Translations under genes and position numbers: made by a program
Source of the DNA: a virus
DNA length: 64,000 nucleotides
Direction: 5' to 3' (one strand)
IMG/VR virus record: IMGVR_UViG_3300020205_002287
Location: 4,225 to 68,224 of that record
Shown: positions 6,001-30,520 of the stretch, piece after piece
How positions within the stretch are numbered: the first letter of the stretch is position 1
How the letters are laid out: each line of letters starts with the position of its first letter
Notes under the pieces: generated by a model
Seen by the model: only the letters and a program-made list of their open reading frames with translations
What the model was told of the DNA's origin: nothing
Databases searched by the model: none

Positions 6001-9000
6001 TTGAAGTGAGTTTGGATTTGATCCATAACCTGCCCTTAAATGGACTCTTACTCCTGGCTTCAATCGGATGTTAGCTATATCAACAACATATTCATTTCTC
6101 ATATGTCCAAGAATATTTTTTGACATATTTAAAGTTCTTTCAATAATAGAACTTAAACCATCAGTCAAAGAAAGTGGGTCGTTACTTCCATTGTTATTAT
6201 TAGGGTTAAATATTTTACTAGATTCATTCTTTGTTAATTTACTATAAAGATTAGAAACTCTAAAAATTAAAGTATCACCTAATAAATCTTCTGAGCTGAC
6301 TACAGAGAAATCAATAATAGATTGTAGTCCATAGAAATTGTCAAACAGTTTAACGCCTGCGAACATACCGCCTTCATCTATCAACCATAGCATGTATGTT
6401 GGGAATGCACGTAGCATTCGGCCTGATACGTCTCGATAAGAGGCATCTACCATCATAGTCTCCCAATGTGATTGTACATCACCGGTATAAGCATTTTGGT
6501 ATTCAGAAACTGCTTTTGCCCCAGAAACCCCTGTATTAACAGTAGTGTTTCCAGTTTCTGGAGTCTGTACATCTTTTATAAAATTAGTTGTTAATTTTGT
6601 AACCCCTGAATTAGAGGAATCATTTTCGATAGTAACCTTCTTGACATTAGTGCCGTTAGCGGTTAAATAAAATCTACCATTATCTCTACTAACATATCCA
6701 AAATGAGTACCTGCCGCTGTTTGCAAGATAGATGGAATTTTATTATTTAATATATCAGCTGGATCTGATGCAGGTACTGTAAAAATTTGTTTATGAAAAT
6801 CAACTTCATCTGGATCAAAACTTACAAATTCTTCACCGGGTAGGTTAAAGGCTCCGATCAAGGCTCCTTCAATAGACCTGGCGTTAGCTGCATCATTGGG
6901 AGATAGGTCCCCCTGCTGAAAACGAGCTGGAGTAACTGCATCAAAGAATGGATTTGTTTCACTAGTTTCTTCGGTTAATGTAATGAAATCAGTCAATAGT
7001 TGCACATTTGTAGAGCTACTATAATCTGTGTTGCCAGTAACAACATTTCTTAGTAAATGAATAAATCTAGATAATCCAATTTGATTTGCAATTATATAAT
7101 CTTTCATTTGCTGCACAACGTCTGTAGAAGCTATAGTATCTTCTACATTATTATATAATTGAATAAATTCTAATATCTTTGCAGTTATCCCTAACGTATC
7201 AAAACCTGGGCCTCCCCATCCGCTTGTAAATTCACCTGTCTCAAAATTGTAGTCTTGGATTTTTGAACGCTGTGTACTAAAGCTATTTACCACATCTCTA
7301 TCAAACATTTCAAAACTTCTGAAGTAATAATCTGGATCTAAATGCCCTACAACATCTCCCTCAGAATTTTTTAAACTTAAAGGAAAATCCGGATACGCAT
7401 TAAATGTTCCCCAGAATTGTTTAATTCTTAAAAATGGATTTTTCTTTGTACTGAATTGTTGTATTAATTCTTCTTGTTGAGTGCTACTAAGTTCTTCTCG
7501 TTTTTGCTGAAATATGTCAAAGTCTATTAGACTTAATTGTACATTGTATGCGTGAGGATAATTAGGTATTGTACTAACATTATAGCTTAGTGGTAAGACA
7601 TATTTAATTCCACACAATGCAGTAATAATATTTTTAATACCTAAGAAGCCGATTACTCCAGTAGCATGCTCTAATCTTGCTAAATTAGATATGTGATCAA
7701 AAACATTTTTTAATTTAATTAATTCTTTTTCACCAATTACAGTCATAGATATACTAATGCTGCTGTCTCTCCCGCCAATATGTTGATAGGTTGGCTCATC
7801 TTGCATTTGTACTTGCAATTTGGCGAGACTGTTACCCATGGATACTGTTACGCCGTTGACAATCACTGAGTGAGGATCTAGGTCAACTCGTATCATCGGA
7901 ACTTCCCATTCCTTGAAAGAGTAACCACTTTCCCTAATTACATTTCCATCTTCATCTATACTATAATTACCTTTGGCTCTTGCTGCTTCCATTAAAGATT
8001 GGATAGGCCCACTCATAAAAAATCTTTGGTATAAAGACACGCTAAATGCTTGAGCTAATTCATTCTTAGTACTTTTTTCAATAGAGGTCCTCATTTCATC
8101 TGTAATCTCACCACCAGCTGCTTGCGCTTTACGTATCTTTTCTTCACTTATTCCACTCTTTATTAAGTCTAGGTAAGATACTGGATTTCTTGAGATCGTA
8201 GTAAATGAATCTTTCATACCATTAAGTGATACATTATTTATAAACTTTCCTTGAAAAATATATGTGCCCTGTTCAGGATAATCCCCCGCTGAAGTATTAA
8301 AGTTACTCTTTAACCAATCTGCTTGAGTCTTAGTAATCGTTTTATTTTCAAGAATAAATGAAGTAACAAAAAACGCATATATCTGTTCAGCTTTATCGTC
8401 TGATGTAATGCCAGCTGTCAATATATCTATAGAGTCTTTTATTGTATTAGCTATTGATTTGGAATAAGAATTTGAAAGTGATATATCTTGGACTTCTTCT
8501 AAAGACACGCCGTATGATTCTGATTGATTAATGTCTATGCCAAACTTAGAAAGTAAACCTTGCCAAGTATTTTGCCCTAGATCGGTAAACATCTTTTCCT
8601 GTTTAGTTCTAAAAGAAGCTGTACTAGGTAAGTATATTTTTGTTTGAGTTTCTGCTGGGGCAAATAGAGAAATATTATTTCCATTTTTCCATTCAGAAAT
8701 TACATTGATATTTAATACATCATTTTCAAATACATTCGGCGGAACTGCAGGTGTTTCTGGATCTGTGTCAGTGTCAGTGCCAGTATCAGTTACAGGTTTT
8801 CCAGTAATAGTCGTAGGAGTTACATCCACTTCTTTGACATCAGACTGCTTTAATAGAAATTCTTCATTAACATAGTCATGAAGATGTCCTGCTGCCTTGC
8901 CCATGTAATGGCGATATTTACCCCAATGAATTGCTTGATTAAAGTCTTTAATCATTGGAAGAAATGGTTGGTGATTAAAATTTAATAATTCAATATCAAC

Positions 9001-10830
9001 AGCGAGTGCAAAAGGATAATTTGGAATAGTTGAAATACTCATACTAGAAAGAGCCACTGCTGTTATTCCATGGACGGCATTTAAATAATGATTTTTAATT
9101 GGGAGAATTGGAGAGTATTTAAATGCAGCGACTAAGCCTCTTAGTGAGGAAAGAAATTTATCTATCTTTATTTCAGTATCCCCGCCATTTTTAAAATCAA
9201 TTTTGAATGTATCGTTTAGATCTATTTTTGATAATGCGTCTACCGACAATCCCCAGATTTCTTCATAGTTTGGAAAAAACAATCTCATTCTAATACTGGT
9301 CTCTTTATATCCTGAATTAAACTTAGGACTATTCTTTTGCCTAATAGCCGCACCGGTAAGGCTTCCAGTTTTAAAATTAGAATTTACATCTATTGATACA
9401 GGGGGAACATAGAAGTTTGCTGCACCCAGCCTTAGGTGAAAATTATCTGGAGTATTTGGAGCTATATTAGCTCTAAATGGTGATGTCTCTAATACATTCT
9501 GAATACGTTGCGATGTATTAGTAAACTTGTAAGCCATCTGAAAAATTGCTCTTGCAGTTTGACTAAAGCCAACTCCAAATCGACGCTCTTCAATACCGGG
9601 AGCTACAAGTACGGAAGTAACACCAAAAGCTTTTTCTAAAGATAATACAAAGTCGTCTGCATTATTGAGAGTATCTTCTTCTCCTCCACCTCTACCATTA
9701 TCAGAATAATCACCAACAACAGCTAATGCATCAATTAAAAAGGTTGTTAGGCTTGGAAAGTAATAACTTATTCCTGCAAAAGTTAAAGGATCATGTTTTA
9801 GCCTTTGTATAACTTCTCCTAATGAGATTAACCAAGGTAGATCTACAGTAGGATCCACTACATTTTCTGCAGAAGCTTGTAACGTATCTTTAGTTCTCAA
9901 TCTTTTCTTTGCAAAATTAGAAATTTCATAGGCGTAGGATGCCAGATTGAATAATCCAATTTCTTCCATTTTATTAAATAATGTTGATACTTCGTGAGCC
10001 TGAAGGTCTCCAACTTGTGAATTAGTTCCACGAAAGATATTGAAAAAATTACTACTATTTTTAATATCCCTATTACCATAAGCTGCCCTTAATAAAGGGT
10101 CAAAAATATATTTTTCATCTGTTTGGTTTACGTTATTATAAGCTTTTGCTATGAAAGAAATAAAAGCTTGATTGTTAAATACGCTAGTTGCGTCATCACC
10201 TGAGTTAATTACTTCTAATTCCGATGAATAAACGGATTCATATCTTTCTAGTTCTGAATATTCCTCGTCAGATAAATCATTATTGCCTCCAGAAAATTGA
10301 TACCAAGTATTTAATCTTTGGAATGCATATTTTTGATATGTAAAGAACGACCTGTCTTCATAAAACATTAAATTGTTATAGTCAAAATGCTCTCTGAGTA
10401 ACTTTGCATTCTTCTCTGCAGCTCGTTGTTCTTGCGCAGTTTCTGGTGTCCAAGTTGGAAAAGCACTTAGTATAAATCCATCCAATAATGCTGCTGTAGC
10501 TTGAGCTACTGCTTCGTATTCCTTAGCTACAATTGCTACACCTGAGACTTCAGCTCCGACCACTGCCATAGATATGCAGTAATTGAAGACGGCAACCGAG
10601 TATGGATCGCTTTCCTGTAGTGCAATTATATTACCACCGGCAGCAATGCTAAAACCGTTTACATCGTCTCCGTCAATTGTTCCATATAGAAAAAATTCTC
10701 TTATCTGCTCTTTTGTTCCAGCAGTGCTGGTTTTATTATCTGGATTTAAAAAGTCATATAGCCAAAAATAAAGATTATCATTTTCTACAATACCTTTTAT
10801 ATAATCTTTAGAAGTATTATTAATAGCCAT
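1..10830 (-). CDS. Giant (>3610 aa, 3'-truncated by window edge) baseplate hub / tail-tip protein with two tube/Dit-like repeats, gp27/Tal-like hub segments, an RlpA-like segment and a thermonuclease (SNase) domain
   Basis: ATG at 10830 (MAINNTSKDY...) with GGA upstream. The frame was open in every segment I translated, and the ORF track lists no terminated ORF from this start, so it runs off the edge. Motifs: RLKPGVRVHLRAGYGSN..LFNGII, RTVWDLFQMC..VAVRPFEDRSTVFYGKP and GELIVIGNSDIRPHD..GIFEVEQVVHHF (hub-like); VIHFVDGDTIEV..VRFDGMNTSE..DQFQRTIG (SNase-like). Confidence 0.85.
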   Translation of the reverse strand, partial: MAINNTSKDYIKGIVENDNLYFWLYDFLNPDNKTSTAGTKEQIREFFLYGTIDGDDVNGFSIAAGGNIIALQESDPYSVAVFNYCISMAVVGAEVSGVAIVAKEYEAVAQATAALLDGFILSAFPTWTPETAQEQRAAEKNAKLLREHFDYNNLMFYEDRSFFTYQKYAFQRLNTWYQFSGGNNDLSDEEYSELERYESVYSSELEVINSGDDATSVFNNQAFISFIAKAYNNVNQTDEKYIFDPLLRAAYGNRDIKNSSNFFNIFRGTNSQVGDLQAHEVSTLFNKMEEIGLFNLASYAYEISNFAKKRLRTKDTLQASAENVVDPTVDLPWLISLGEVIQRLKHDPLTFAGISYYFPSLTTFLIDALAVVGDYSDNGRGGGEEDTLNNADDFVLSLEKAFGVTSVLVAPGIEERRFGVGFSQTARAIFQMAYKFTNTSQRIQNVLETSPFRANIAPNTPDNFHLRLGAANFYVPPVSIDVNSNFKTGSLTGAAIRQKNSPKFNSGYKETSIRMRLFFPNYEEIWGLSVDALSKIDLNDTFKIDFKNGGDTEIKIDKFLSSLRGLVAAFKYSPILPIKNHYLNAVHGITAVALSSMSISTIPNYPFALAVDIELLNFNHQPFLPMIKDFNQAIHWGKYRHYMGKAAGHLHDYVNEEFLLKQSDVKEVDVTPTTITGKPVTDTGTDTDTDPETPAVPPNVFENDVLNINVISEWKNGNNISLFAPAETQTKIYLPSTASFRTKQEKMFTDLGQNTWQGLLSKFGIDINQSESYGVSLEEVQDISLSNSYSKSIANTIKDSIDILTAGITSDDKAEQIYAFFVTSFILENKTITKTQADWLKSNFNTSAGDYPEQGTYIFQGKFINNVSLNGMKDSFTTISRNPVSYLDLIKSGISEEKIRKAQAAGGEITDEMRTSIEKSTKNELAQAFSVSLYQRFFMSGPIQSLMEAARAKGNYSIDEDGNVIRESGYSFKEWEVPMIRVDLDPHSVIVNGVTVSMGNSLAKLQVQMQDEPTYQHIGGRDSSISISMTVIGEKELIKLKNVFDHISNLARLEHATGVIGFLGIKNIITALCGIKYVLPLSYNVSTIPNYPHAYNVQLSLIDFDIFQQKREELSSTQQEELIQQFSTKKNPFLRIKQFWGTFNAYPDFPLSLKNSEGDVVGHLDPDYYFRSFEMFDRDVVNSFSTQRSKIQDYNFETGEFTSGWGGPGFDTLGITAKILEFIQLYNNVEDTIASTDVVQQMKDYIIANQIGLSRFIHLLRNVVTGNTDYSSSTNVQLLTDFITLTEETSETNPFFDAVTPARFQQGDLSPNDAANARSIEGALIGAFNLPGEEFVSFDPDEVDFHKQIFTVPASDPADILNNKIPSILQTAAGTHFGYVSRDNGRFYLTANGTNVKKVTIENDSSNSGVTKLTTNFIKDVQTPETGNTTVNTGVSGAKAVSEYQNAYTGDVQSHWETMMVDASYRDVSGRMLRAFPTYMLWLIDEGGMFAGVKLFDNFYGLQSIIDFSVVSSEDLLGDTLIFRVSNLYSKLTKNESSKIFNPNNNNGSNDPLSLTDGLSSIIERTLNMSKNILGHMRNEYVVDIANIRLKPGVRVHLRAGYGSNPNSLQTLFNGIITNVEQGEIVTITAQSDAIELGAVINSVNKKGDSGKIDGGVDTGMYLSEPRDLMVRLLSMGASRTREAIAHATRGTVFSENRFGIRHFGNILYEPLTKGEEAKNDAVRDSITGAFSIAGGNNSFMNRAVGITEGFSMNYRGNTFSAISQLFANFCAQVDLEIFKRNIYPGNGTGIAQFLGGDLDDGWSTAASLTKEDSYNERMEGYLGRLTDRTWNDLVSNSELENDGLLDTGANGTLSFLTEDNQLVNSDGRAGLVKGLFGAGITAGAFALGGPATAAIAGSGLLGVLRGRGGTNIFRTMGIISPNSDDDLPGLDEVSFRAQTYMRTVWDLFQMCAKLLPNYIVAVRPFEDRSTVFYGKPHWLYTSGVVPVTTGFPGQEKAEELGIIPPQIKQPDQDLVSILDKINKDSNPLADYAAFFQASEPSQTIQEMSGAMLSSGGIYAPTSKVTGKILNFYSEPSTTYYDPYDTTKILARLPISKGYVNIGFHLPVGVTGGGTEDTLALQQDKHKQLPNLPPRFSFPYFTANEDLPDDQLINSSFINLADDIKTFMDESNGDHITTGNKDYYNNLLKLQSLEYIFFEETKQTLIPNDDIINLDNPLNFGQLNEQAAKLYPDARKVMVPLPRIGLSTNASGSIGSATIRQENVDDNFSFEYQSGNYGELTYKEWGTPATAEDEQFYIAMRWPYNPVSQSETNRTGADEDTISQFKSNYDFEHLYGTVKDYKSRKVLVYNPANKRAVVCRPAYFLWGNEEAIDVIQSDGDREHGLAAAVVSPDAAYYLGIITRNSDEKDMVVSNATKGVEDMNNWRNSGFRPYPLMQECYMAFVPDNVPVGVIADAVAPASPFSLKGQNGEEIEEDQGLTIGFGSFKPKEGDVNYAVQRIASGDTSGSADTIERRAIAINDSLNAYKPLDTYMVSNVEGLQYGGNALNVVKEGDQKTYFQAVIDAEYSPLARENLYNILADELPDTGEGDTATGRVSFAPVYSPLDIISVEARSYYDENFDASVSVIAGDGRTLRQAEDIWDQFRFGYHNYESVKQIFFDAFSLDPDNENEFPEFYKNILTGSGYSGDAMPRFNDTTGDGQAGALDEFKILLGSDFISNLQSTNNSSSESSADSTSNQNFKEAIEFARANYIDAKIDQGGIVEYFNAVIKKSLLSIHTNFLSTDNATVNNVLSFSLSADRDNPTLTSELVKKIKTPKQLFLLMVGIFRQRMWEDAYARAWLVLKPDRKKAGDDQWSFKPVDKIFRAFIDPYSDYAKPGKQDKFLKLLAATKGEGNSSTNIVGDAADGINDFWNANVGPIFTAIGDALSGIMSMFALAMQQMGYALSEAGNFKKQANILNKALNDSIYYSLGRPGTLLRAVDNPFSREYGEPVIEVREPFQRLHYISSFSHILSNEIQENINGVATTVTAISDGKYPVTVALDKGAPAERQVEKTVETGLYFDNMTGSGFTGFLHPLMHPLETFRGVAKNVQGAPDELSARRVALAHLKESIKDIYGGELIVIGNSDIRPHDLIYLADVYERMYGIFEVEQVVHHFTAELGYITSITPNALVTVNDPARWFMTSWIHSWMNVQTIRNDTRMYLSRIRSGNSGISVGGNISMDALGEALSPQLLGGLQFTHGSSALVKDVMANQTAQSLPDAKDQLIAQASANKEGAGVGFKMLAGGLAAGALLGAVTPIGLVGAAIGGPLVGQLAWKGWSWIRDKVLDQHGCYVQYLNKNGQPMDAGLSYNQGMVVGKYHSKALLPGILGVRANVRTPEGNAYIRSDDLFKSLGWNESQITDLVRHVSYENALVHARVLKMAGLGPEKAGLEPQFRVLCKVIHFVDGDTIEVQDVLSGAIFKVRFDGMNTSEINTMEGKVGYPDTPTNPVTANDTISLLDLSTPGGRAKLFTTKALTDKIFVLRVNPTRVGKTAVLEQDYEAGASQNIDANYIKDQFQRTIGTIFYYLPEVNIEKHKINIRNIFRSNQESLDTVQAEVQKNMYDQSPFRVK

Positions 10831-10839
10831 GTAATTTTC

Positions 10840-11283
10840 CTATTTAAACATCATATTATTTTTAACTATATTGCTAATTTTATTACTAGATGATCCAGTC
10901 GCAGACATGGAACTGTAATTATCCATTATACTATAATTTTTATTAACAGGTGCCATATTAAAATTAAAGTTGTGATCATTATGCGATACTTGATTTTTGT
11001 TATACCGGGCATTTTGTACCGCTTTATTGTCATAGCCTACGCCATCCATTTGCAGGACGGTGGAAGAACTATGCTGCAGGCCTTCGTATGAGCCTTTTAG
11101 CTTGGCAGAATTAGATTTTCTGACAGTAGCTTTTGATTCACCAATAGTTTTATTTGCAGAAGACTTACTGGAAGAAATCTTACCTGAGTAGCTATCTGCA
11201 TTTTGTTTTCTGTAAGATGTATCTTTTGGACGACCAGCTGCACTACTCAGCCTTTTATTCTGATCACCAGCACCAAAAATCAT
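10840..11283 (-). CDS. Hypothetical basic Ser/Asn/Lys-rich protein (147 aa)
   Basis: ORF fills the gap between two large genes with 9-12 nt spacers; AGGT upstream. No recognisable domain. Confidence 0.75.
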   Translation of the reverse strand: MIFGAGDQNKRLSSAAGRPKDTSYRKQNADSYSGKISSSKSSANKTIGESKATVRKSNSAKLKGSYEGLQHSSSTVLQMDGVGYDNKAVQNARYNKNQVSHNDHNFNFNMAPVNKNYSIMDNYSSMSATGSSSNKISNIVKNNMMFK

Positions 11284-11295
11284 AAATACCTAACC

Positions 11296-14200
11296 TTAAT
11301 AATTGGCTGCCATTTCCGCATATGGATCCTGGCCCACATTGGGGATTCTGTTATACATAGTAGTGTTAATATTACCATTAACTAACCCTCCTGCAGCAGC
11401 ATTAAATCTTCCAACAGCGTCTTGGTCCCCATATAAGTTCACTTTATAGCTGACGCCAGGATCAGAGCCTGGTCCACCAAAAGTGCCAATCTGCGGAATT
11501 CTATTTGGATAACCGCTTTCATAGGCAGATCCGCCTGGAAGTAGTGGGGGGCCGGCCATATCTTGATGCGTTCTATCTCTGATCTCTGTATAGGCTAGGC
11601 TCCCTGCTATTAAGGCGCCAATTGCCAAAGCGCCTTTTTTAATAGTAGGGTTCTTGAAAAGATCTTTAAGATCTCCCATTTTTTCGCCTATTCTTTTATA
11701 CACTCCCTTATTCTCTACTAGTCCATCGTCTAGGTCTGTAATTGAATTAATAATATTATCAGCTAGTCCATCATCTCCAAATGCTGTTCTGGCAGCATCG
11801 GCATCTAGCACACCAGCTGTTCCTAGGGTTCCTGGTGTTACATCATCTATTAGCCCTGTCGATGGATCAATATTTATTAATCCAGCTTGCGCTAGTTGCT
11901 CTTTTTGTATTTGAGCTTTTATCAATGCTACCTGATGATTAGCATTTCCTCGTACCAAATCATCAGCAATTTTATCCGAGTCACCTAGTATCGCTCTAAA
12001 AACATCATTTTGTTCGTTAGTCGTTTCAAAAATATCGAGCATTGTGTTTGTGCCGTCATCTATCCTTCTTTGAGCTTCTTTTACGGAGTCTAATCTTTTT
12101 TGAGCCTCTACCTCCAAGTCCTTGATGGTACCTTTATTCCCGAGGCTAGCTCTGACTTGATTGGCATAATCTTGATCAAAAGATTCATAATGCTTTACTC
12201 TTCTGTAGGTTCTAACATCTTGTATTGCTTTAGCTGCCCTTTCCGCGTCCTCTGGTAGCTCTCCTGCTTGCAGCGACGTTAAACGCCTTAAGCCTCCAAT
12301 ATCAACTCTAGTTCCAGCTGTTACTTTATCTATTGCATTTACTAAATCTACTGATGACATTCCTATTAATTTAGAGGCTTGATCTATATCTGTTAAGACC
12401 TTTTGGCCTATATTATCTAAAAGTGCAGTGTGATTAAACTGTTCAATTTGACTCATTTCCTTAAAAGCATCCGTAGTCGTACCAAATATCTCATCTAGCT
12501 CATCCTTATGAGTAGCAAGAATTGATCGAGCAACCGAATCAGCTTCCCTAGAAGTTCGAGTTGAAGATAGAATGTCGTCAGATGGAATTCTAGATATTGA
12601 GGACCTTTTCACAGAATCAAGATATGACGACATTCGAACCGCTGTGTCATGTGAAGTAGCTAAGGCTGCAAATCGGTGATCTGACTTTAGGCCAATTCTT
12701 TTTACTAATTCCTCTTTAATCTTACTTGCATCATTAGTGGAGGATACAGCTTTTAATTGTTTTAATGTTTCATCTAAATCAACAGCTGTTGATAGCCCTT
12801 GTCTTTGGGCATCTTCCATACCTTTAATCATATTGTCTAATATAGATTTTGTATCTGTATCTCTAATCCTATCTTTCAATAGAAACTCATCAATACCTAA
12901 TTGGAGGCTATCATCAGGGGAGCCAACTGCGCGCGAGAAGCCAATCATTTTTCCTAGCGTCTCGATGCTTTGTCCACCAAAAACGTCAAGCCCTAAATCT
13001 GCTCCAGATAGTCCTAATTTTACTAGCGCTTTTTGAATTCCTACATCATTTGTGTAATTAGCACTATCCGCTGCAGATAGAACGCTTCCTACATCATTAA
13101 TTAGTCTCCTTTCGTTGGCAAAGTTTACAGCAACGGAGGCGTCAATTGCTGCATCCTGTGACAGTAAGCCAATCTTATAGTTTTCTAACATGTACTTTTT
13201 GGTGGCGCTAGAGGTACCTGCGTCATTCAAGAAAGCTTCATATTGATTTAAAACACTGCCAACTGTCATCGATCTATTGACGTACACTCCAAGAATGTCA
13301 CCACCTTCAATAGCTTTTTTTACACTAAAATCTTCTATTGCTGTTTGAAAAATTGCTCGCAAAGCCGGGTCTGTCTGAAAGGTGGCTTCCATCATCTTTA
13401 GCATTTCGTCAAAATTTGCAGCTCCTGAAAATTGATTTATCATTTTTTGATCAAAATTGTTTGCTCTCATTGTTTCCAAGAAATCATCTTTCATATCAAA
13501 AGAGCCTGATTCTACAAAAACTTTAAATATTCCTTCTCTAGTATAATTTGGTTGGTTCGTCAAATCATCAACGCTTAATGTAGAGGACCCATAATCAAAT
13601 ATTTTTTGCGCTCGTTTTGTGTCTAATTTTTGTATTGTAGTTACTCCACGTCTTTCCAAATCTCCAAAAACATTTATTATAGCTTGTTCGAAATCATCTA
13701 TATGATTTAGGGATAGTGTTCTGTCTTTTGTGACAATTTGCCCTTTAACAGTTGTTTGTGTAGTGTGCCTACCATCTAGTATGTCTTGAAGAATTCTGTA
13801 CGTTGTTTTATGAGCTGTATTGCTAGTTGATTGTGTTAAAGAGTCTAAAGATTCCCTAAATGCTATAACTGAAGAAGAATCTTCCTTGCCTCCAAATAAT
13901 CCCCTAATAGTATCTTGATCCATATTCATTCTAGCAAAGATTAATTCTTCGGGGCCAGATGGCTGACGACTAATGTTGAAGCCTAATCGAGTCAATCCCT
14001 GATTATCTTTATATGTTAGAATTTTTTCTAGTACCTTGTCGTCTAAGTCGAATCCACCAAGAGCATGTCTATATTTACCAATAGAGTCAGCAGGCAGCAT
14101 CATTTTATGGCCACTAACTCTAAACTTTAATATGTCGTGTTGTACATCACCTAAACCATCTATGGATATCCGATCATATCCCCTGCCTTTATTTAGGATC

Positions 14201-16209
14201 ATTTTTCCTTTTTTGTTTCCCATCAAAATTGCTTCACTGTCAATTGCAAAACGATGAGTGTCAGGAATAACCATTTGCATGAAATTACCCTTCATTCTAA
14301 ACGCTTCCGTTGCAAAGAAGTTATGCATCAAGTTCATCATTGTCGGACTTTGCTTTGGACTAACGCCACTACGCATCATGTCTAATATAGAATTAGCATA
14401 TTCTTTATTTCTAAGCGCCGAAACACGTGCGTGTGATGGGAGGTGATCTATATCGCGCTGTGATGCTTCTTCTAGCATTGCTCTTACCTTACGAGGGACT
14501 GTGTTACTGTTAATTGCTTCTTCAAATTCTTTAAGAACACTTCGACCTCTTTGTTCCATCGCATCCAGTGTCGCTCGATCAGCAAAAACTTCTGGATGAA
14601 AGGCAGCGGATACTGGATCCGAATACACTAACTCGCGCCCTGAGCCCATTCCACTTAAAAGTAACTCATCAGTATCTGCTGCCATACCTAATTCTGTCTT
14701 AAATGCAAATTTGCTGGCAATCATTGTGTATTTTTGTAAGGATACTTTTACGCCGTTAACAATTTTCTCGTCAAAATCCACTGCTTGACCAGCTGTTTTA
14801 ATATTCCCATATACAGCGTCGTTACCCCTCAAGGTAAACTGCTCAAGTCCTCCAGTGGCTTTAGCTCTAGAAGTTTGTCCTTTAATATTCTCCAATTCTT
14901 TTATTTCAATTGCCATATCTTCCATTTGTTGAGAAGTAAGAGGCCGACCTAAACCTCGTTGAGCATTAGATAACTTTTTTTTCAAAGAATTTATTTTTTT
15001 GTCCATCGATGAAATGTATCCACTGATGTTTTTCATATTGATCAAATCAGATCCGTCGTACGCATACTCAATATTATCAAATAATTGTTTTACAAGACTT
15101 GCTCGTTTTTTATCAACAACACCATTAACTTTAACAAATTTTTTTTCTAAATGTTCCATTAACTGGTCACTGGCAAACTTTTTACCAGTTTTTCCGTCTT
15201 TGTCGTATGCAAAGTTTCTAGAACGTATAACTTTTTCAAATTCTGTTTTTTCTTTGTTACTAAATTGGTTCATTATGCTTCCGACAAAATCCTCTGCATC
15301 TACGTTATCATAATAGAGGGCTAGCTCTTTACCTCTCATAGTGTTTCCAAAAACTTTTGTTTTATCAGTTCCTTGATAGGTCATTTTTTTCAATAACTCA
15401 TACTGAGGATCTACCATAAATATGGAAGCGTTCAAAGTGGAATTTTTGCCCCCTCCAATAAAGTCTTGTAAATTCGATCCAGCCAAAGATACTTCTCTTT
15501 CAGAAGCTAATGATTTAAATCTTTTGGGCATTTTCAACAAATAGTCAGCTAGTCTTCCAGATCTAAGTGCTTTTGGATTGGCACTAAGGATTTTATCGGA
15601 CAGTGCTTTTGGATCTAATATGTTATGACCTGTCACGGATAGTAGTAGATGCGACTGATAACTAGTTAGCATCTTGCCGCCAGCTCTCATGGTTATCAAT
15701 CTTGCACTTTCGTCATCGATCATAGTTATCCCATGCAGTGAACCACGTTTTTTTAGTTTCTCTAGCTCCATAGCAATATTTTTAACTCCACCTTTGCCCT
15801 CATGAAGAGTTGAAATATCTACTTGCATATCTTTTATCGCACTTACGTCGATTCCAGCATCTTGCAGTAATTTGATTTGGCTTGCTGACAATGTCTGTGA
15901 TTTTTCTTTTATGTTAGACATTATTTCAGCCATACCAGCTACTTTACTTCCTAATTTTGACTCTCCTCGTTTACTACCTGAATTGGACAGATTGTTAAAT
16001 TGGGAAATTCTTAGTGTGCTTGCTTGAGCAAAGGCTCTCTCAATAGATTTAAATGATTCACCAGTAACACTTAAGACGAATTTTATTTCATCTCCATCAG
16101 GTTCTATCTTGATGGCACCACCCATGCCATAAGACGTTCTCATTAAAGCAGATCTTGCGGCAGCCATTCTCTCTGGAAGCGTGTCGTACATTTTATTAAT
16201 GTCTACCAT
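11296..16209 (-). CDS. 1637-aa probable virion protein; putative single-subunit two-barrel (QDE-1/YonO-like) DNA-dependent RNA polymerase
   Basis: Ordered motifs YDGSDLIN, QFTLR..GNIK, IASKFAFK, LGGFDLDDK, SRQPSGPEE and DILGVYVN. Start codon overlaps the upstream stop (TAATG). The CDS is certain; the function is inferred from motifs only. Confidence 0.6.
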   Translation of the reverse strand: MVDINKMYDTLPERMAAARSALMRTSYGMGGAIKIEPDGDEIKFVLSVTGESFKSIERAFAQASTLRISQFNNLSNSGSKRGESKLGSKVAGMAEIMSNIKEKSQTLSASQIKLLQDAGIDVSAIKDMQVDISTLHEGKGGVKNIAMELEKLKKRGSLHGITMIDDESARLITMRAGGKMLTSYQSHLLLSVTGHNILDPKALSDKILSANPKALRSGRLADYLLKMPKRFKSLASEREVSLAGSNLQDFIGGGKNSTLNASIFMVDPQYELLKKMTYQGTDKTKVFGNTMRGKELALYYDNVDAEDFVGSIMNQFSNKEKTEFEKVIRSRNFAYDKDGKTGKKFASDQLMEHLEKKFVKVNGVVDKKRASLVKQLFDNIEYAYDGSDLINMKNISGYISSMDKKINSLKKKLSNAQRGLGRPLTSQQMEDMAIEIKELENIKGQTSRAKATGGLEQFTLRGNDAVYGNIKTAGQAVDFDEKIVNGVKVSLQKYTMIASKFAFKTELGMAADTDELLLSGMGSGRELVYSDPVSAAFHPEVFADRATLDAMEQRGRSVLKEFEEAINSNTVPRKVRAMLEEASQRDIDHLPSHARVSALRNKEYANSILDMMRSGVSPKQSPTMMNLMHNFFATEAFRMKGNFMQMVIPDTHRFAIDSEAILMGNKKGKMILNKGRGYDRISIDGLGDVQHDILKFRVSGHKMMLPADSIGKYRHALGGFDLDDKVLEKILTYKDNQGLTRLGFNISRQPSGPEELIFARMNMDQDTIRGLFGGKEDSSSVIAFRESLDSLTQSTSNTAHKTTYRILQDILDGRHTTQTTVKGQIVTKDRTLSLNHIDDFEQAIINVFGDLERRGVTTIQKLDTKRAQKIFDYGSSTLSVDDLTNQPNYTREGIFKVFVESGSFDMKDDFLETMRANNFDQKMINQFSGAANFDEMLKMMEATFQTDPALRAIFQTAIEDFSVKKAIEGGDILGVYVNRSMTVGSVLNQYEAFLNDAGTSSATKKYMLENYKIGLLSQDAAIDASVAVNFANERRLINDVGSVLSAADSANYTNDVGIQKALVKLGLSGADLGLDVFGGQSIETLGKMIGFSRAVGSPDDSLQLGIDEFLLKDRIRDTDTKSILDNMIKGMEDAQRQGLSTAVDLDETLKQLKAVSSTNDASKIKEELVKRIGLKSDHRFAALATSHDTAVRMSSYLDSVKRSSISRIPSDDILSSTRTSREADSVARSILATHKDELDEIFGTTTDAFKEMSQIEQFNHTALLDNIGQKVLTDIDQASKLIGMSSVDLVNAIDKVTAGTRVDIGGLRRLTSLQAGELPEDAERAAKAIQDVRTYRRVKHYESFDQDYANQVRASLGNKGTIKDLEVEAQKRLDSVKEAQRRIDDGTNTMLDIFETTNEQNDVFRAILGDSDKIADDLVRGNANHQVALIKAQIQKEQLAQAGLINIDPSTGLIDDVTPGTLGTAGVLDADAARTAFGDDGLADNIINSITDLDDGLVENKGVYKRIGEKMGDLKDLFKNPTIKKGALAIGALIAGSLAYTEIRDRTHQDMAGPPLLPGGSAYESGYPNRIPQIGTFGGPGSDPGVSYKVNLYGDQDAVGRFNAAAGGLVNGNINTTMYNRIPNVGQDPYAEMAANY

Positions 16210-19200
16210 TATCTAACTCCCGCCGAAACGTCAATGCCCTGTGAGCCAAAAGGATTCATAACTGGAGTAACACTTCCGGAAAATCCAAATCCATTCATCA
16301 ATTGGCGCAATTTATCAAGAGTGCTATTTCCATCACTGCTTTTCCCAAATTGAGGATAACTAGGATTAGCTAAATTTGCTTCACGAATCTGCTGAGGGAA
16401 ATATCCCATTTGAGACATTTCTATACCCATAGATTCTCCTGTTTTAATTTTTACTTGTTCTAAGTTTGTGTTAGGGTGCCATCCTTCCCATGACGCATCT
16501 GGTAGTTCGTGCCGCGTAAAATAATCGTCCAAATCTGGTCTTTGCTCAACATTCATGCCCCATGATGCCTCATATATTCTTCTCTCTAGACGTCCTGCAG
16601 TAGAAAGTATTCTGCCCCTTTCTCCTTCTGGAGCATTAAGCATGGCTTTGAAGTGTTCTCTTTTTCTTTTAGGAATAGATAAGGATAACGTGTCAATGTC
16701 TTTACCGTAAAGATCCGCACCGTACATTGTTCTTTTTGCTGCCATCCCATAGTCTAATGCCGCTTTTTCATCCCCTGAAGATTTAGCCATAGTTTCTAAT
16801 CTTTTATTTTTTACATAACTTAAAATATCAGAGTATTCTTCTAATGCTAATTCCTTTTTCCTTTGCTTTGGCATAAATCTTTCTCCAGTTATCAATTCTG
16901 AAGCCTGCCCGTATGTTGATGCTGCCAGACCGGTAGTCACACCAACCGCTGTTCCTAGTAGTTTAGCTTTAGCTGTTCTACCGAAAAGCGATCCGGCAAT
17001 GCCTAGCCCAGTCGCTGCTGTTATAGGATCTCTTTGTGTAGATTTGTCAATCATTGGTTTAATATAACTATCAAATGGTCTTTGCCATTCAGGGAACGTG
17101 GCACCGTATACGTGCTTCCTTTCCCAATCTTCAGTAGCTGTTCTTTTTCCTATTGTTTTGTTAATAGCAAAGTTATCCGAATGAGCTATATATTCGCCAA
17201 TTCTTCCTGCGCCAAATTTTAATGGATGTTGTCCCATTTCTTCAGCTGATGACCCCTTGTATTTGTAATCAGTAAATTCATTTTTAGTTGCCATACTTTC
17301 AACTTGGGATCTTATATCAGTTACTTTATTTCTTTCGGCCGGACCTAAATCCATGCTATCAATTTTTTTATCTAATGTTTTATATTGTTGCGAGAATGGT
17401 GCGACATCTCCTAATATTTTTAATTGATCTAATGCGCCGTATGATCCAGTTGAATCTGGGTTTAATCTATTAAACCTTTCATAGCCCACTCCCGGCAGTC
17501 TTAATTCACCTTCTTGCACCTTAGTGTATGGATCGCCTCTAGTGAAATCTGTGAAATATTCAGAACCAGGAAGAAATGGATACTGTTTACCCATTGTGTT
17601 TTCTATTGGATTTATATAGTCTACGCCAGTTCTTTCTTTTGGAATAAATCTTCTAACAATTTCAGAGAATTCCAGGTTACCCAATCCCTCTCTGTTACCC
17701 AGTGGTGCATCTCCTAAGCCTCCAAGATTTAAATCCCAAAACGCTCGAGTGCTTCCATAGGCTTTTGACGCGGACTGTAAAACGCTTCTTTGCGGTTGAT
17801 AATCTGACTGACCAAATCCTAATGATTTTCTTAGATTGCCAAAACCAAAACCATAGATACCAGCCATTTCTTGCATTCTGAATCCAAGCTCACCTGCCTG
17901 GAAAGAACTAGTACTGGGTTCTAACGGAGCACCGGCTCCAACTATTCTCGGAGCCATTACGCCAGACGTCTTAGGAGGACCATAGGACAAGTCGCTGTAT
18001 TGAGAGTTTACATCTTTCAGTGAAGACCTGACCATCGAACCAGCTGCTCCGGTGCTTCCAGCTCTGCTAGCCAACATTGAGTTGACCCCAGAGATGCCTG
18101 TAGCTCCGCTGGAGCCGATTGGTGAACCAGGCCTAGCTGTCATTGCCCCAGAGCCAGTCAGGGCCATTTGAGGGGACCCTCCGGCCATATCTCTTGTGAA
18201 TCCCACTCCGTCTATGTAGCTTGAAGTCATTCCATACGCAGACGCGTCATAGGCCCCAGATTGACCTGCATTTGTATAATTAGACAATCCTTGTGCTGTT
18301 TCATTCTCGTGCATTAGCACTTGGGGCTTTAGTAGTTTTCCGACTGTCATATTTGCCAGTGGGACAAGTGGACCAAAAGGACCAGTAAAATACTCGCCAC
18401 TAACTGGGTATGGTCTGTCTTCGTAGTGCTTACGCTCAAATCTGTAAGGATCTAATGGTCTTAGTGGCGAAATATCATTATAAAATAAGAACTTTTCAGC
18501 TGGACTTCCGTATGTATCGCTAGTGAACATAGCGCCTGCTTGAAGTTTTCGGTACCAAGAAGGCCTGTAGTATTGGATCTTTCCGCCTTTAAATGGAGTA
18601 TTACCTAAAGGCCAAAATCTTCCTTGTCTTATTGGTACTTCTCCCTCAACCAATTGCTCTTTCTTTTCGTCATACGTCATTCCACCAGGAGTCAGACCAG
18701 CAGATAGGGATTGCAGTTCCATCGCACCTTTTGCTACCTGGCCCAACACTAATGGAGAATAAACTCTTTCCCCTCTGTCATCTTTTTCATTGACCATCCC
18801 ACCCATTGTTCTGTCTACAGTGAGTGCCGTAACTCCAGCTGCATACATTGGCAATACTCTTTTGCCAACCATTCCTGTTGCAAAAAGGTCTAGTGGTCCT
18901 TTGAAGTCAGAAACATTTAACTGCATTCCCAGTGTACCGAAATATCTATTTAGTCTTTCTACGCCCTGAGAAACTGGTATGCTTGCGGTAGAGAAGCTTT
19001 GTGGATCAGAATACGTTGTTAATCCAATTGCGCTTTTGATCGCACCCATTGGATCTCTTCCGAAAACTGTTCCAAAAGTTGGAACAACAGTTATACTTTG
19101 CCCGGAACCAAGTGGGTCTACAGCTAAATCATCCGCCTGGTATCCAGATGTTCCAAGTGCTTTTTGCTTTAAGGAAACTAGTGGTGAGAATTTTTTACGA

Positions 19201-24117: not shown

Positions 24118-25083
24118 TTAAAAGCTCCAGCTAGTACTTGGATCTTGTAATAACTGGTCATAAGTAAGTGAGCTAGGATCAATATTAGATGGCGCATCAG
24201 AATCTGAAGTATTATTAGCAGACATTCCTTTTATGAAATCAAGCTTTGCTTCAGTAAAATAATAATCTCTAGCTATAAATTGATAACTCTCACCAATTGC
24301 CATACCACCTGGGTTATAGGTTGTTGACATATTCATTAAATTAACTTGCTGAAGTATTATTTTCATTGGACTTACTTTATTGTCCATTTTAATAGTTCTT
24401 TGATTAACGTCAAAAGACATTTGATTATTTAAATAACTAGAAGTACTTGTGTCTTCAGAAGCATTGGCGCTGAATGGACTTAGGGCTGTTTCTTCTAGTC
24501 CGTACAAAATAACAAAATTAAATGGTGGGTGGGCGCTGAATATATTGGTAGTGTCATATCCAGAAACTGCCGGGTCAGAAGTTATTCTATCCAATTGACT
24601 ATAGGCCCAAAATTTTTCTATATTACTTTCATCGCTTGAAGAAAGTTGTGAATCTAATCGTGAAACAATTGTGTCTTTTGGTGTCCTAGTACTTTTATTC
24701 ATCGCTCGAGATTTTGCTGCTTTTTCTAGAAGCTCTGTCATTCTGCGCGGATACCTGGTGAATATACTTATTTCACCACTAATGATTCTTGAACCCAGCA
24801 TGACCGTATCATAATTGTATGACCAGAATCCGTAAACAGGTTGTTTTTCCTGTCTAACGGAATAGGAAAAGGAAGCAATATCTAATTCATCTTCTGGACC
24901 AAAAAGACCATCAATGTATACTTTTACATCTTCCCCACTGAAGTAGTAATCATAATAATTATTAAAAGTTTTGTCAGTATCTGGTGCCCTACCTGCGTAG
25001 ACTCTATCTATGTGATTTGATAAGGGATCGTATTCTTTATCAAATTTCCAAAACTTTTTATTATCTAATCTTGATTCCGGCAT
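24118..25083 (-). CDS. Tail-tube-fold protein (tube initiator / baseplate-tube junction-like), 321 aa
   Basis: YFSGEDV..IASFSYSVRQEKQPVYGF..GSRIISGEI..PPFNFVI..YQFIARD, paralogous to the tube gene at 25924..26601. Confidence 0.65.
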   Translation of the reverse strand: MPESRLDNKKFWKFDKEYDPLSNHIDRVYAGRAPDTDKTFNNYYDYYFSGEDVKVYIDGLFGPEDELDIASFSYSVRQEKQPVYGFWSYNYDTVMLGSRIISGEISIFTRYPRRMTELLEKAAKSRAMNKSTRTPKDTIVSRLDSQLSSSDESNIEKFWAYSQLDRITSDPAVSGYDTTNIFSAHPPFNFVILYGLEETALSPFSANASEDTSTSSYLNNQMSFDVNQRTIKMDNKVSPMKIILQQVNLMNMSTTYNPGGMAIGESYQFIARDYYFTEAKLDFIKGMSANNTSDSDAPSNIDPSSLTYDQLLQDPSTSWSF

Positions 25084-25112
25084 TATTACCTGCTATCTAG
25101 CGATGTTTTCTA

Positions 25113-25847: not shown

Positions 25848-25864
25848 TATTCCTTATCCTTATA

Positions 25865-25899
25865 ATGAAATGTGCACGGGGGAAGATCCCCCGTGCACA
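25865..25899 (-). terminator. Intrinsic terminator downstream of the tail tube gene
   Basis: Perfect 13-bp inverted repeat TGTGCACGGGGGA / TCCCCCGTGCACA followed by TTTCATT on the minus strand. Confidence 0.75.
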
Positions 25900-25923
25900 C
25901 CTGTCAACCTAGAGTAGTTTCTA

Positions 25924-30519: not shown

Positions 30520-30520
30520 A

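What the first reader, a model, noticed from the sequence alone, without database searches (positions are those of the whole stretch)
11296..16209. Candidate virion-packaged two-barrel RNA polymerase with a variant DxDD catalytic loop and RxP after it
Seen in sequence: the 1637-aa protein has, in order, YDGSDLIN (~15038-15060), QFTLR..YGNIK (~14797-14840), IASKFAFK (~14698-14720), LGGFDLDDK (GGFDLDD at 14038-14058), SRQPSGPEE (~13945-13970) and DILGVYVN (~13276-13300). Established: single-chain double-psi beta-barrel polymerases (Neurospora QDE-1, SPbeta YonO, crAss-like phi14:2 gp66) have DGxGxxS, QxR..GxKG and SxxK motifs in the first barrel, RxP and DxDxD in the second, and QDE-1-like enzymes have a downstream LGxxxN helix. 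Inference: this is a divergent member with two oddities, DLDD instead of DxDGD/DFDID, and RxP about 25 aa after the aspartates instead of before, which suggests a circularly permuted catalytic barrel. It is translationally coupled to the tape-measure candidate inside the tail operon of a sheath-bearing phage, so it may be packaged and ejected to transcribe early genes or pull DNA into the cell.
Basis: partly seen in the sequence, partly recalled or inferred. Interest (0 to 1): 0.92.

Follow-up and report, generated by a model that had tools for sequence, protein, structure and literature searches.

The report
Rewired RNA polymerase in phage tail module
A 1637-residue gene among the tail genes of an uncultured giant phage is predicted to fold like a single-chain cellular-type RNA polymerase with a shortened metal-binding loop and a reordered active site, so the phage probably carries its own transcription enzyme.

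Summary
ORF 11296-16209 (minus strand) encodes 1637 aa, and every quoted motif sits at the stated coordinates.

Conservation across 170 homologues:
- D385: 136/136
- K471: 135/136
- K504: 142/145
- D721, D723, D724: 162/162 each
- R748, P750, E755: 163/163 each
- G974: 136/136

No Pfam, PHROG or PDB sequence match exists.

AlphaFold models (pLDDT 87.7 and 89.4) have QDE-1, maize RDR2 and Thermus-phage gp62 as best matches among 48,161 chains, with 174-225 residues aligned. gp96 follows at ranks 18-19 (131-133 aligned). Z is only 3.7-5.7.

The D-x-D-D loop and the R-x-P after it are real. A circular permutation was not shown.

By synteny with Bacillus phage 0305phi8-36, the gene sits in the slot annotated as tape measure.

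New here: relatives carry one or two compact paralogues outside the tail module, also with R-x-P after the Asp loop. One type keeps a canonical DxDGD.

Polymerase activity and virion packaging are untested.

The scan has noted this same family before on other genomes.

The parts
11296..16209 (-). Whole gene, 1637 aa (P0001): candidate tail-module two-barrel RNA polymerase
   Evidence: Open frame and translation. 27 homologues and 168 clusters at 50% identity.
15037..15060 (-). YDGSDLIN (aa 384-391); D385 is the proposed fourth metal-site Asp of the first barrel (QDE-1 D709 equivalent)
   Evidence: D385 136/136, G386 135/136. The model-1 alignment starts at 45<->QDE-1 700, which puts D385 at about 711. 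The D709 role is from PMC9508822.
14854..15036 (-). Long helical hairpin (aa 392-452) inserted in the first barrel; absent from the compact paralogues
   Evidence: Helices 63-88 and 97-123 of model 1. It fills the top of the fold search. It is gapped in the profile alignment to the compact family.
14797..14841 (-). QFTLRG...GNIK (aa 457-471): first-barrel strands carrying R461 and K471
   Evidence: R461 130/138, K471 135/136, Q457 80/138. The model-2 alignment 1<->QDE-1 732 puts R461 at 738.
14698..14715 (-). SKFAFK (aa 499-504): the second conserved Lys, K504
   Evidence: K504 142/145, K500 51/144.
14311..14577 (-). Helical connector between the two barrels (aa 545-633)
   Evidence: Helices 91-114, 119-129, 138-159 and 168-179 of model 2.
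13927..14301 (-). Second (catalytic) barrel region, aa 637-761
   Evidence: Strand and helix order in model 2. Aligned to QDE-1 up to residues 1017-1023.
14104..14124 (-). FRVSGHK (aa 696-702), 24 residues before the Asp loop. It looks like the canonical F-R-x-P-x-x-H of relatives but lacks the Pro.
   Evidence: F696 140/161, R697 130/161, H701 100/161. Compare FRNPVMGH in gp96 and FRSPLIHK in 0305phi8-36 ORF99. The resemblance is by eye only.
14035..14058 (-). GGFDLDDK (aa 718-725): D-x-D-D metal loop, one residue shorter than DxDGD
   Evidence: D721, D723, D724 162/162 each. Range ends 276-279<->QDE-1 1017-1020 put D721 at about 1008. A paralogue type in relatives keeps WDQDGD in this region; the profile alignment does not cover the loop itself.
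13945..13968 (-). RQPSGPEE (aa 748-755): invariant R-x-P in a beta-hairpin loop after the Asp loop; candidate relocated Pro-gate loop
   Evidence: R748, P750, E755 163/163 each. Strands 286-294 and 302-307 of model 2 flank it. Both compact paralogue types show the same order.
13273..13293 (-). LGVYVNR (aa 973-979): candidate bridge-helix motif
   Evidence: G974 136/136, N978 134/136, R979 118/136. The model-1 range end 663<->QDE-1 1103 puts N978 at about 1089.
11581..11634 (-). Gly/Ala-rich moderately hydrophobic helix (aa 1526-1543) near the C-terminus
   Evidence: Sequence. Mean hydropathy stays below 1.4 over 19 residues, so it is not a clear membrane helix.
11518..11553 (-). GPPLLPGGSAYE (aa 1553-1564): invariant C-terminal motif of unknown role
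   Evidence: Invariant columns G1553 to G1560, Y1563 and E1564 in 22 sequences.
16209..22847 (-). Upstream 2212-aa gene; its stop overlaps the ATG (TAATG). Homologue of 0305phi8-36 gp145.
   Evidence: Present upstream in 71 of 73 related loci.
10840..11283 (-). Downstream 147-aa gene, conserved neighbour
   Evidence: Found in 64 of 73 related loci; the other loci end before it.
1..10830 (-). Giant hub-position gene of more than 3610 aa (runs off the window)
   Evidence: The hub position follows the 0305phi8-36 gene order.

Best explanation
The gene encodes a very divergent single-chain two-barrel (double-psi beta-barrel) nucleotide polymerase, most likely a DNA-dependent RNA polymerase. It is built into a large tail-module protein that occupies the tape-measure slot of a jumbo myophage of about 200 kb, related to Bacillus phage 0305phi8-36.

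Proposed active site (inferred):
- D385 of the first barrel, with D721, D723 and D724 of the second, hold two Mg ions.
- R461, K471 and K504 hold the RNA 3' end and the NTP phosphates.
- The invariant R748-Q-P750 hairpin acts as the ribose-sensing Pro-gate, although it follows the Asp loop.
- The LGxYVNR helix acts as the bridge helix.

Proposed biology (inferred from gene position and from the P23-45 precedent): the protein is assembled in the tail, leaves with the DNA and transcribes the first genes. Compact paralogues found elsewhere in the genomes of relatives would then take over.

Shown here: motif conservation, the predicted fold, synteny and the paralogues.
Not shown here: catalysis, template type, packaging, and the paralogues in this genome itself, which is a 32% fragment.
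For: (1) Fold.
- Model of aa 455-790: pLDDT 89.4.
- Among 48,161 chains only one reaches Z>=5, and it is QDE-1 (Z 5.5, rmsd 5.4, 219 aligned).
- Rank 2 is maize RDR2 (Z 4.9, 201 aligned). Rank 3 is P74-26 gp62, a non-virion RNAP (Z 4.7, 174 aligned).
- Ranks 18-19 are the P23-45 gp96 virion RNAP (Z 3.7, 131-133 aligned).
- No unrelated row aligns more than 106 residues.
- In the second look, seven QDE-1/RDR2 entries score Z 4.9-5.7; the next row scores 3.2 with 76 aligned.
- Model of aa 330-1010: pLDDT 87.7. Eight of the top nine rows are QDE-1 or RDR2 with 269-334 residues aligned; all other rows align 116 or fewer.

(2) Residues.
- The invariant positions are the set that PMC9508822 describes for QDE-1: one Asp in barrel 1, three in barrel 2, basic residues in barrel 1, R-x-P, and bridge-helix Asn/Arg (passages read).
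- They fall within 0-3 residues of those positions by range arithmetic.

(3) Paralogues.
- A compact family of 804-889 aa with the same motif order occurs in 4 of 4 near-complete relatives and shares 7 contigs with the large gene.
- Profile-profile E 3.1e-5 over 309 columns; reversed control E 0.26.
- A further type in G001 and G002 carries WDQDGD followed by RSP. This suggests DxDD descends from a canonical loop.

(4) Context.
- The gene order tube, chaperone-position genes, 2212 aa, this gene, 147 aa, hub holds in all 73 related loci as far as each reaches.
- The slot equals 0305phi8-36 gp146, which was found in virions by mass spectrometry according to the record's annotation.
- Four near-complete relatives have no match to PF00623, PF00562 or PF05183.
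- A TMP-fused virion RNAP with a non-virion paralogue is established for P23-45 (PMC10770324, Results read).
Against: - Absolute structural scores are modest. Z is 3.7-7.7, and Foldseek E-values are 0.05 or worse against the PDB. The tool warns that Z under 8 can reflect a common arrangement only.
- No sequence method links the family to any known polymerase:
  - Pfam, PHROGs and PDB profile searches are empty.
  - hhalign against the gp66 family gives E 0.062, and against the ORF99/RdRP family E 0.3.
- The canonical DxDxD signature is absent, and R-x-P is in the wrong place.
- Residue equivalences come from range ends, not from a residue-level superposition.
- The link to the compact paralogues leans on the loop region that I used to find them. 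The N-terminal part alone gives only E 0.024.
- The T7-like search (PF00940) had no working control.
- The gene is broken into 2-4 open frames at several different places in relatives. That fits a modular enzyme but fits a continuous tape measure poorly.
- No virion, expression or activity data exist, and no cultured phage carries the gene.
Confidence: 0.6

Rival explanations
1. The fold is a two-barrel polymerase but the chemistry or role differs. It could be an RNA-dependent polymerase, a primer-making or DNA-polymerising enzyme (as archaeal PolD is within this superfamily), or mainly a motor that pulls the genome in.
For: - The closest structural matches are RNA-dependent enzymes, QDE-1 and RDR2.
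- QDE-1 uses both DNA and RNA templates (PMC9508822 abstract).
- The shortened metal loop and the moved R-x-P could change sugar or template selection.
- Hardies et al. raised an injection role for the 0305phi8-36 polymerase (PMC2147016, passage).
Against: - Per the papers read here, gp66, gp96 and gp64 are DNA-dependent RNA polymerases; YonO's title and abstract in a search listing say the same.
- Four near-complete relatives matched no multisubunit (PF00623, PF00562) or RdRP-type (PF05183) RNAP family. The T7-like search had no working control.
- In G001 a paralogue gene lies directly downstream of a promoter-like motif, which fits a transcription cascade.
Confidence: 0.15
2. It is a working RNA polymerase but is not carried in the virion. 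It is merely encoded in the late tail operon and acts in the cytoplasm.
For: Packaging rests only on gene position. In relatives the gene is split into separate frames, so N-terminal pieces would lack the C-terminal region that might anchor them in the tail.
Against: - The gene keeps its place between two virion-gene homologues in all 73 loci, with an overlapping stop and start.
- Its positional counterpart gp146 is a virion protein by mass spectrometry, per the record annotation.
- Compact paralogues already exist on the non-structural arm of relatives, which leaves the tail copy free for a virion role.
Confidence: 0.12
3. It is not a polymerase. It is a tape-measure or tail-lumen structural protein whose conserved acidic loop binds metal or serves another enzyme (for example a DPBB-type wall hydrolase), and the resemblance to QDE-1 is a weak or over-fitted prediction.
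For: - The gene sits in the tape-measure slot.
- The ESM Atlas nearest clusters are tape-measure-like, but at chance-level scores of 0.78-0.81.
- All structural Z-scores are below 8.
- No sequence-level link to polymerases exists.
Against: - The only matches spanning more than one domain, out of 48,161 chains, are two-barrel RNA polymerases from four different families.
- The invariant residues are exactly the polymerase catalytic set, in the expected order apart from R-x-P.
- A paralogue type carries a textbook DxDGD.
Confidence: 0.1

Closest known systems
Thermus phage P23-45 gp96 (tape-measure-fused virion RNAP) with its non-virion paralogue gp64 / P74-26 gp62 (PMC10770324; PDB 8h2m, 8h2n, 8f5m)
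   Same: - A single-chain two-barrel core inside a very large tail-module protein at the tape-measure position.
- A second, compact paralogue elsewhere in the genome (seen here in relatives).
- gp62 ranks 3 and gp96 ranks 18-19 of 48,161 chains in the fold search.
   Different: - No detectable sequence similarity.
- gp96 has DFDGD with FRNP before it; this family has DxDD with RQP after it.
- gp96 belongs to a siphovirus and carries a metallopeptidase domain; this is a sheathed phage and no such domain was found.
- Here the core is central (aa ~380-1000), not N-terminal.
Neurospora QDE-1 and plant RDR2 (cellular RNAi polymerases, Pfam PF05183), and the PF05183-type ORF99 of Bacillus phage 0305phi8-36
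   Same: - Best structural matches: 201-334 residues aligned.
- Gln/Arg before the first-barrel Lys, as in QDE-1 Q736/R738.
- 0305phi8-36 is among the nearest cultured relatives of this phage and encodes such an enzyme.
   Different: - PF05183 does not match this protein, its family or four related genomes.
- hhalign against the ORF99 family gives E 0.3.
- ORF99 has FRSP before DTDGD and lies on the non-structural arm.
crAss-like phage phi14:2 gp66 virion RNAP (PDB 6VR4; bioRxiv 10.1101/2020.03.07.982082)
   Same: - A giant virion-module protein with a two-barrel core that is delivered to the host, per the abstract and passages read.
- A downstream G-x-G-x-x-x-N helix motif lines up with LGxYVNR in a non-significant profile alignment.
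   Different: - hhalign against a 63-sequence gp66 family gives E 0.062.
- gp66 has RIPNQ 39 residues before DFDID.
- It belongs to a podovirus-like phage.
- It did not appear in the listed fold-search rows.

Membership tests
Two-barrel (DPBB) polymerase superfamily, single-chain clade | Two double-psi beta-barrels in one chain, beta-like barrel first, with a helical connector | tested here: met
   By predicted structure only. QDE-1, RDR2 and gp62 are ranks 1-3 of 48,161 chains, and gp96 ranks 18-19. QDE-1/RDR2 stand at Z 4.9-5.7 against 3.2 for the next row. Absolute Z is modest.
Two-barrel (DPBB) polymerase superfamily, single-chain clade | D-x-D-x-D metal-binding signature in the second barrel | tested here: not met
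   The loop is D-x-D-D in 162 of 162 homologues. Three Asp are kept, but the loop is one residue short.
Two-barrel (DPBB) polymerase superfamily, single-chain clade | The Asp loop lies at the structural position of the catalytic loop (QDE-1 D1007-D1011) | tested here: inconclusive
   Range ends 276-279<->1017-1020 put D721 at about 1008. No residue-level alignment or coordinates were available.
Two-barrel (DPBB) polymerase superfamily, single-chain clade | A further Asp and two basic residues in the first barrel | tested here: met
   D385 136/136, R461 130/138, K471 135/136, K504 142/145. Positions by range arithmetic are within 0-2 residues of QDE-1 D709 and R738.
Two-barrel (DPBB) polymerase superfamily, single-chain clade | R-x-P (Pro-gate) loop upstream of the Asp loop | tested here: not met
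   The invariant R-x-P lies 24 residues after the loop (163/163). Upstream there is only F-R-x-x-G-H without Pro (R697 130/161). RxP precedes the loop in QDE-1 (residues cited), gp66, gp96 and ORF99.
Two-barrel (DPBB) polymerase superfamily, single-chain clade | Bridge helix after the second barrel | tested here: inconclusive
   LGxYVNR (G974 136/136, N978 134/136) falls at about QDE-1 1084-1090 by range arithmetic.
Two-barrel (DPBB) polymerase superfamily, single-chain clade | Template-dependent NTP polymerisation | not testable with these tools
   Needs purified protein.
Pfam PF05183 (RdRP; QDE-1/RDR/ORF99 type) | Match to the family model | tested here: not met
   No hit for this protein or 22 family members, nor in G000-G004. 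The same model finds 0305phi8-36 ORF99 at 1.1e-20.
Tape-measure-fused virion RNAP (P23-45 gp96 type) | Polymerase core in the protein that occupies the tape-measure position of the tail module | tested here: inconclusive
   The slot equals 0305phi8-36 gp146, annotated 'hypothetical tape measure protein'. There is no homology to gp146, and which of the two giant proteins measures the tail is unknown.
Tape-measure-fused virion RNAP (P23-45 gp96 type) | Presence in the virion and delivery to the host | not testable with these tools
   No cultured member: tblastn against 50,697 phage records found nothing.
Tape-measure-fused virion RNAP (P23-45 gp96 type) | A paralogous non-virion polymerase in the same genome | tested here: inconclusive
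   Met in relatives: 4 of 4 near-complete genomes and 7 shared contigs. It cannot be tested in this genome, a 68-kb fragment estimated at 32% complete.

The most novel reading that the evidence does not exclude
A whole lineage of phages of about 200 kb runs transcription with a private clade of two-barrel RNA polymerases: one tail-borne enzyme plus one or two compact ones. In this clade the catalytic barrel is wired in a different order, with the Asp loop before the Pro-gate hairpin. In most members the metal loop has also lost a residue. This would be the first topologically rearranged active site known in the superfamily that includes all cellular RNA polymerases.
Probability: 0.3. Interest if true: 0.9.

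Novelty: new variant of a known kind. Interest (0 to 1): 0.78.

Why it matters
- The DxDxD loop and the R-x-P loop that precedes it were present, in that order, in every characterised two-barrel polymerase I checked here: QDE-1 (paper passages), gp66, gp96 and 0305phi8-36 ORF99. A large natural family that keeps all catalytic residues but shortens the loop and moves R-x-P would show how much the oldest polymerase active site can be rearranged.
- It would add a third phage group, after crAss-like phages and Thermus phage P23-45, that carries a two-barrel polymerase in the virion. It would be the first of these with a contractile tail.
- The family is abundant: 168 clusters at 50% identity and 195 IMG/VR stretches. 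It has no match in the Pfam, PHROGs or PDB sequence searches run here, so many jumbo-phage genomes probably lack a transcription annotation.

Tried and rejected
Searches that found nothing significant
- Pfam and PHROGs on the protein and its neighbours. Pfam on 22 members.
- phmmer and a family profile against PDB sequences.
- tblastn against 50,697 phage records.
- hhalign of the family against single gp66 or gp96 sequences, a 63-sequence gp66 family (E 0.062) and a 66-sequence ORF99/RdRP family (E 0.3).
  - These greedy alignments do put DG on DG and GGFDLD-D on GGADTDGD, but they are not significant. I use them only as illustration.
- ESM Atlas gave tape-measure-like clusters at 0.78-0.81, which is chance level.

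Homology to positional counterparts
- No homology to 0305phi8-36 gp146 or Moorella phage CDS0027.
- A C-terminal resemblance to gp146 scored -1.8 bits. I dropped it.

Wall-hydrolase alternative
- No MltA-, RlpA- or expansin-type chain is in the listed rows. This is an absence among listed rows only.

Promoter motif
- TTTATGRCTAG is clustered in G001 and G002 but not enriched over the reversed control in five closer, incomplete relatives.
- A de novo k-mer scan of the closest relative, G006, found only (TAAG)n runs.

Permutation
- It could not be tested.

Literature
- Searches returned no listed title or abstract describing this family, and none of the papers I opened did. 'DxDD' together with 'two-barrel' gave 0 papers.
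- The 23 family alignments in the supplements of PMC10770324 could include it. Supplements were closed.

Not used: complex prediction, sequencing-run tools, metagenome and genome contig scans.
Full report
**What is there.** The minus-strand ORF 11296-16209 encodes 1637 aa. Its ATG shares a base with the stop of the upstream 2212-aa gene (TAATG, with GGAG ten bases upstream).

The window belongs to a 68-kb IMG/VR virus record estimated at 32% complete. Its structural module runs on the minus strand in this order:
- terminase, portal, major capsid protein;
- sheath, then tube-like genes;
- two small genes;
- the 2212-aa gene, this gene, a 147-aa gene;
- a gene of more than 3610 aa.

**Family and conservation.** Nothing in Pfam, PHROGs, PDB sequences or 50,697 phage records matches. 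The big protein collections hold 27 homologues at 26-99% identity and 168 clusters at 50% identity. IMG/VR holds 195 confirmed stretches, of which I kept 73 loci on contigs of up to 216 kb.

I aligned 170 proteins or fragments to a profile of aa 330-1010.
- Invariant wherever covered:
  - D385: 136/136
  - D721, D723, D724: 162/162 each
  - R748, P750, E755: 163/163 each
  - G974: 136/136
- Nearly invariant:
  - G386: 135/136
  - K471: 135/136
  - K504: 142/145
  - R461: 130/138
  - R653: 153/159
  - N978: 134/136
- Weaker: Q457 80/138, S387 73/136, K500 51/144.
- The loop is never DxDxD.

**Fold.** AlphaFold2 with a 64-sequence alignment gave pLDDT 87.7 and pTM 0.83 for aa 330-1010, and pLDDT 89.4 for aa 455-790.

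Foldseek against the PDB found nothing at E<=0.001. Ranks 1-10 for the large model were nevertheless all QDE-1 chains, at E 0.05-0.35.

For the large model, a 60-residue helical hairpin (aa 392-452) fills the top of the full VIA search. QDE-1 is the only row that spans several domains: Z 7.7, rmsd 5.6, 327 aligned. In the second look, eight of the top nine rows are QDE-1 or maize RDR2 with 269-334 residues aligned, and no other row aligns more than 116.

For the hairpin-free model, results against 48,161 chains were:

| Rank | Chain | Z | Aligned | Model range <-> chain range |
|---|---|---|---|---|
| 1 | QDE-1 | 5.5 | 219 | 1-279 <-> 732-1020 |
| 2 | maize RDR2 | 4.9 | 201 | 1-277 <-> 573-835 |
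| 3 | P74-26 gp62 | 4.7 | 174 | 1-291 <-> 129-347 |
| 18-19 | P23-45 gp96 | 3.7 | 131-133 | 1-289/301 <-> 527-796/812 |

Only the QDE-1 row reaches Z>=5. In the second look on this model, QDE-1 and RDR2 score 4.9-5.7 and the next row 3.2. The scores are modest in absolute terms. The argument rests on the ranking and on the aligned lengths.

**Residue equivalences.** PMC9508822 (passages read) assigns these roles in QDE-1:
- D709, D1007, D1009 and D1011 bind two cations.
- Q736, R738, K743 and K767 hold the product and the NTP.
- R962-x-P964 is the Pro-gate loop.
- L1082, N1087 and R1091 belong to the bridge helix.

Counting from the ends of the aligned ranges gives D385 at about 711, R461 at 738, D721 at about 1008 and N978 at about 1089. 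This is arithmetic on ranges, not a residue alignment.

**The two oddities.** DxDD is real.

R-x-P 24 residues after the loop is also real, and it is better conserved than the upstream F696-R697-x-x-G-H701 (R697 130/161). By eye that upstream motif resembles FRNPVMGH of gp96 and FRSPLIHK of 0305phi8-36 ORF99.

In gp66, gp96 and ORF99 the R-x-P precedes the Asp loop, as it does in QDE-1 by the residue numbers cited.

The model has strands and helices in the usual number and order before the Asp loop, and an extra hairpin carrying RQP after it. Whether that hairpin sits where the Pro-gate should be, and whether the barrel is permuted, I could not test.

**Context.** The gene order holds in all 73 related loci as far as each reaches. 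The 2212-aa gene lies upstream in 71 loci and the 147-aa gene downstream in 64.

The nearest cultured relatives by terminase and by the 2212-aa protein are Moorella phage MTATph1, Bacillus phage 0305phi8-36 and its kin, and Acinetobacter phage ME3.

In 0305phi8-36 the 2212-aa homologue is gp145, annotated 'virion structural protein'. The next gene, gp146, is annotated 'hypothetical tape measure protein' and was found in virions by mass spectrometry. So the candidate sits in the tape-measure slot.

It shows no homology to gp146 or to the Moorella counterpart. 0305phi8-36 itself has a PF05183-type polymerase, ORF99, on its other arm.

Four near-complete relatives (194-216 kb) have one copy of the large gene each. 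They have no match to PF00623, PF00562 or PF05183. The PF00940 search had no working control.

A regular expression for GGxDxDD followed by R-x-P found one further ORF each in G001 and G006, both on the non-structural arm.

They belong to one family of 804-889 aa.
- It is present in 4 of 4 near-complete relatives.
- It shares 7 contigs with the large gene.
- Its profile matches the core of the large family at E 3.1e-5 over 309 columns. DG aligns with DG, R with R, K with K, the Asp loop with the Asp loop and R-x-P with R-x-P. The helical hairpin is absent.
- A reversed control gave E 0.26. The N-terminal part alone gave E 0.024, so most of the signal comes from the region I selected on.
- It has no PDB or Pfam match.

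G001 and G002 hold a third type (898- and 1132-aa open frames). It is homologous to the compact family at 3.3e-16 and 3e-19 for the best domains. Its loop reads WDQDGD and is followed about 45 residues later by RSP.

Thus all three paralogue types place R-x-P after the Asp loop, and DxDD looks like a one-residue deletion in a canonical loop.

This genome fragment does not reach that arm, so the paralogues are inferred for it.

**Other observations.**
- In relatives the large gene is broken into two to four frames, near aa 100, 250-308, 510-525, 666-690, 795-835, 1117 and 1195.
- G001 has 15 forward copies of TTTATGRCTAG between 136.9 and 148.8 kb, and G002 has 7 between 50.5 and 55.7 kb. Most follow GC-rich hairpin-like sequences. 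The reversed control found none.
- In G001 the last copy lies just upstream of the DxDGD paralogue gene.
- Closer but incomplete relatives show no such enrichment.

**Reading.** The most likely explanation is a new, very divergent family of single-chain two-barrel RNA polymerases carried in the tail-module protein at the tape-measure slot. It would work with compact non-virion paralogues, as in P23-45 (PMC10770324, Results read).

Catalysis, template, packaging and barrel topology remain inferred. The scan has reported the same family from other genomes, with similar verdicts. I did not rely on those verdicts.

Noticed in passing
G001:C1:160138-162756 (+) = L105; G006:C1:131359-133788 (+) = L099; also L100-L111: A compact paralogue family of 804-889 aa with DG, R..KG, GGxDxDD and RxP in the same order as the tail-module gene.
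   Followed up: yes
G001:C1:148785-151478 (+); G002:C1:58309-61704 (+) = L112: A third paralogue type (898- and 1132-aa open frames) whose metal loop is the canonical WDQDGD but whose RSP still follows the loop, about 45 residues later. G003 has instead a second DxDD copy, with one in-frame TGA.
   Followed up: partly
G001:C1:136936-148784; G002:C1:50529-55714 (L114): A promoter-like motif, TTTATGRCTAG. There are 15 and 7 copies, all on the forward strand, upstream of short same-strand genes; most follow GC-rich hairpin-like sequences, seen by eye. The reversed control found none. It is not enriched in five closer, incomplete relatives.
   Followed up: partly
Loci L014, L016, L030, L032, L040, L043, L051, L053, L059, L060, L069, L070 (match region 10001-15300): In relatives the large gene is divided into 2-4 adjacent or overlapping frames at recurrent places (near aa 100, 250-308, 510-525, 666-690, 795-835, 1117, 1195). 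Real gene splits, programmed frameshifts and assembly errors were not told apart.
   Followed up: partly
L078:22278-29891 (0305phi8-36 gp146): The positional counterpart in 0305phi8-36, annotated as a hypothetical tape measure protein, carries a DEDD-exonuclease-like YLDIETTG stretch and a C-terminal Gly/Ala-rich helix. The slot therefore seems to hold different enzymes in different lineages.
   Followed up: no
window 24118-26601 (-): Three genes after the sheath match phrog_9206, which is labelled 'major head protein'. They lie where 0305phi8-36 has its tail tube and tube paralogue, so the PHROG label looks wrong for them.
   Followed up: no
window 26627-27898 and 28909-30543 (-): Two sheath-like genes (a sheath and a weaker sheath paralogue), as annotated for 0305phi8-36 ORF139 and ORF137.
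   Followed up: no
L079:20178-21665 (Moorella phage MTATph1): A transposase gene is annotated directly after the slot gene, between it and the hub-region genes.
   Followed up: no
G001:C1:1-127 and 209575-209701: The last 120 bases tested recur starting at base 7 of the record, implying a direct terminal repeat of about 127 bp. This fits IMG/VR's class for the record.
   Followed up: no
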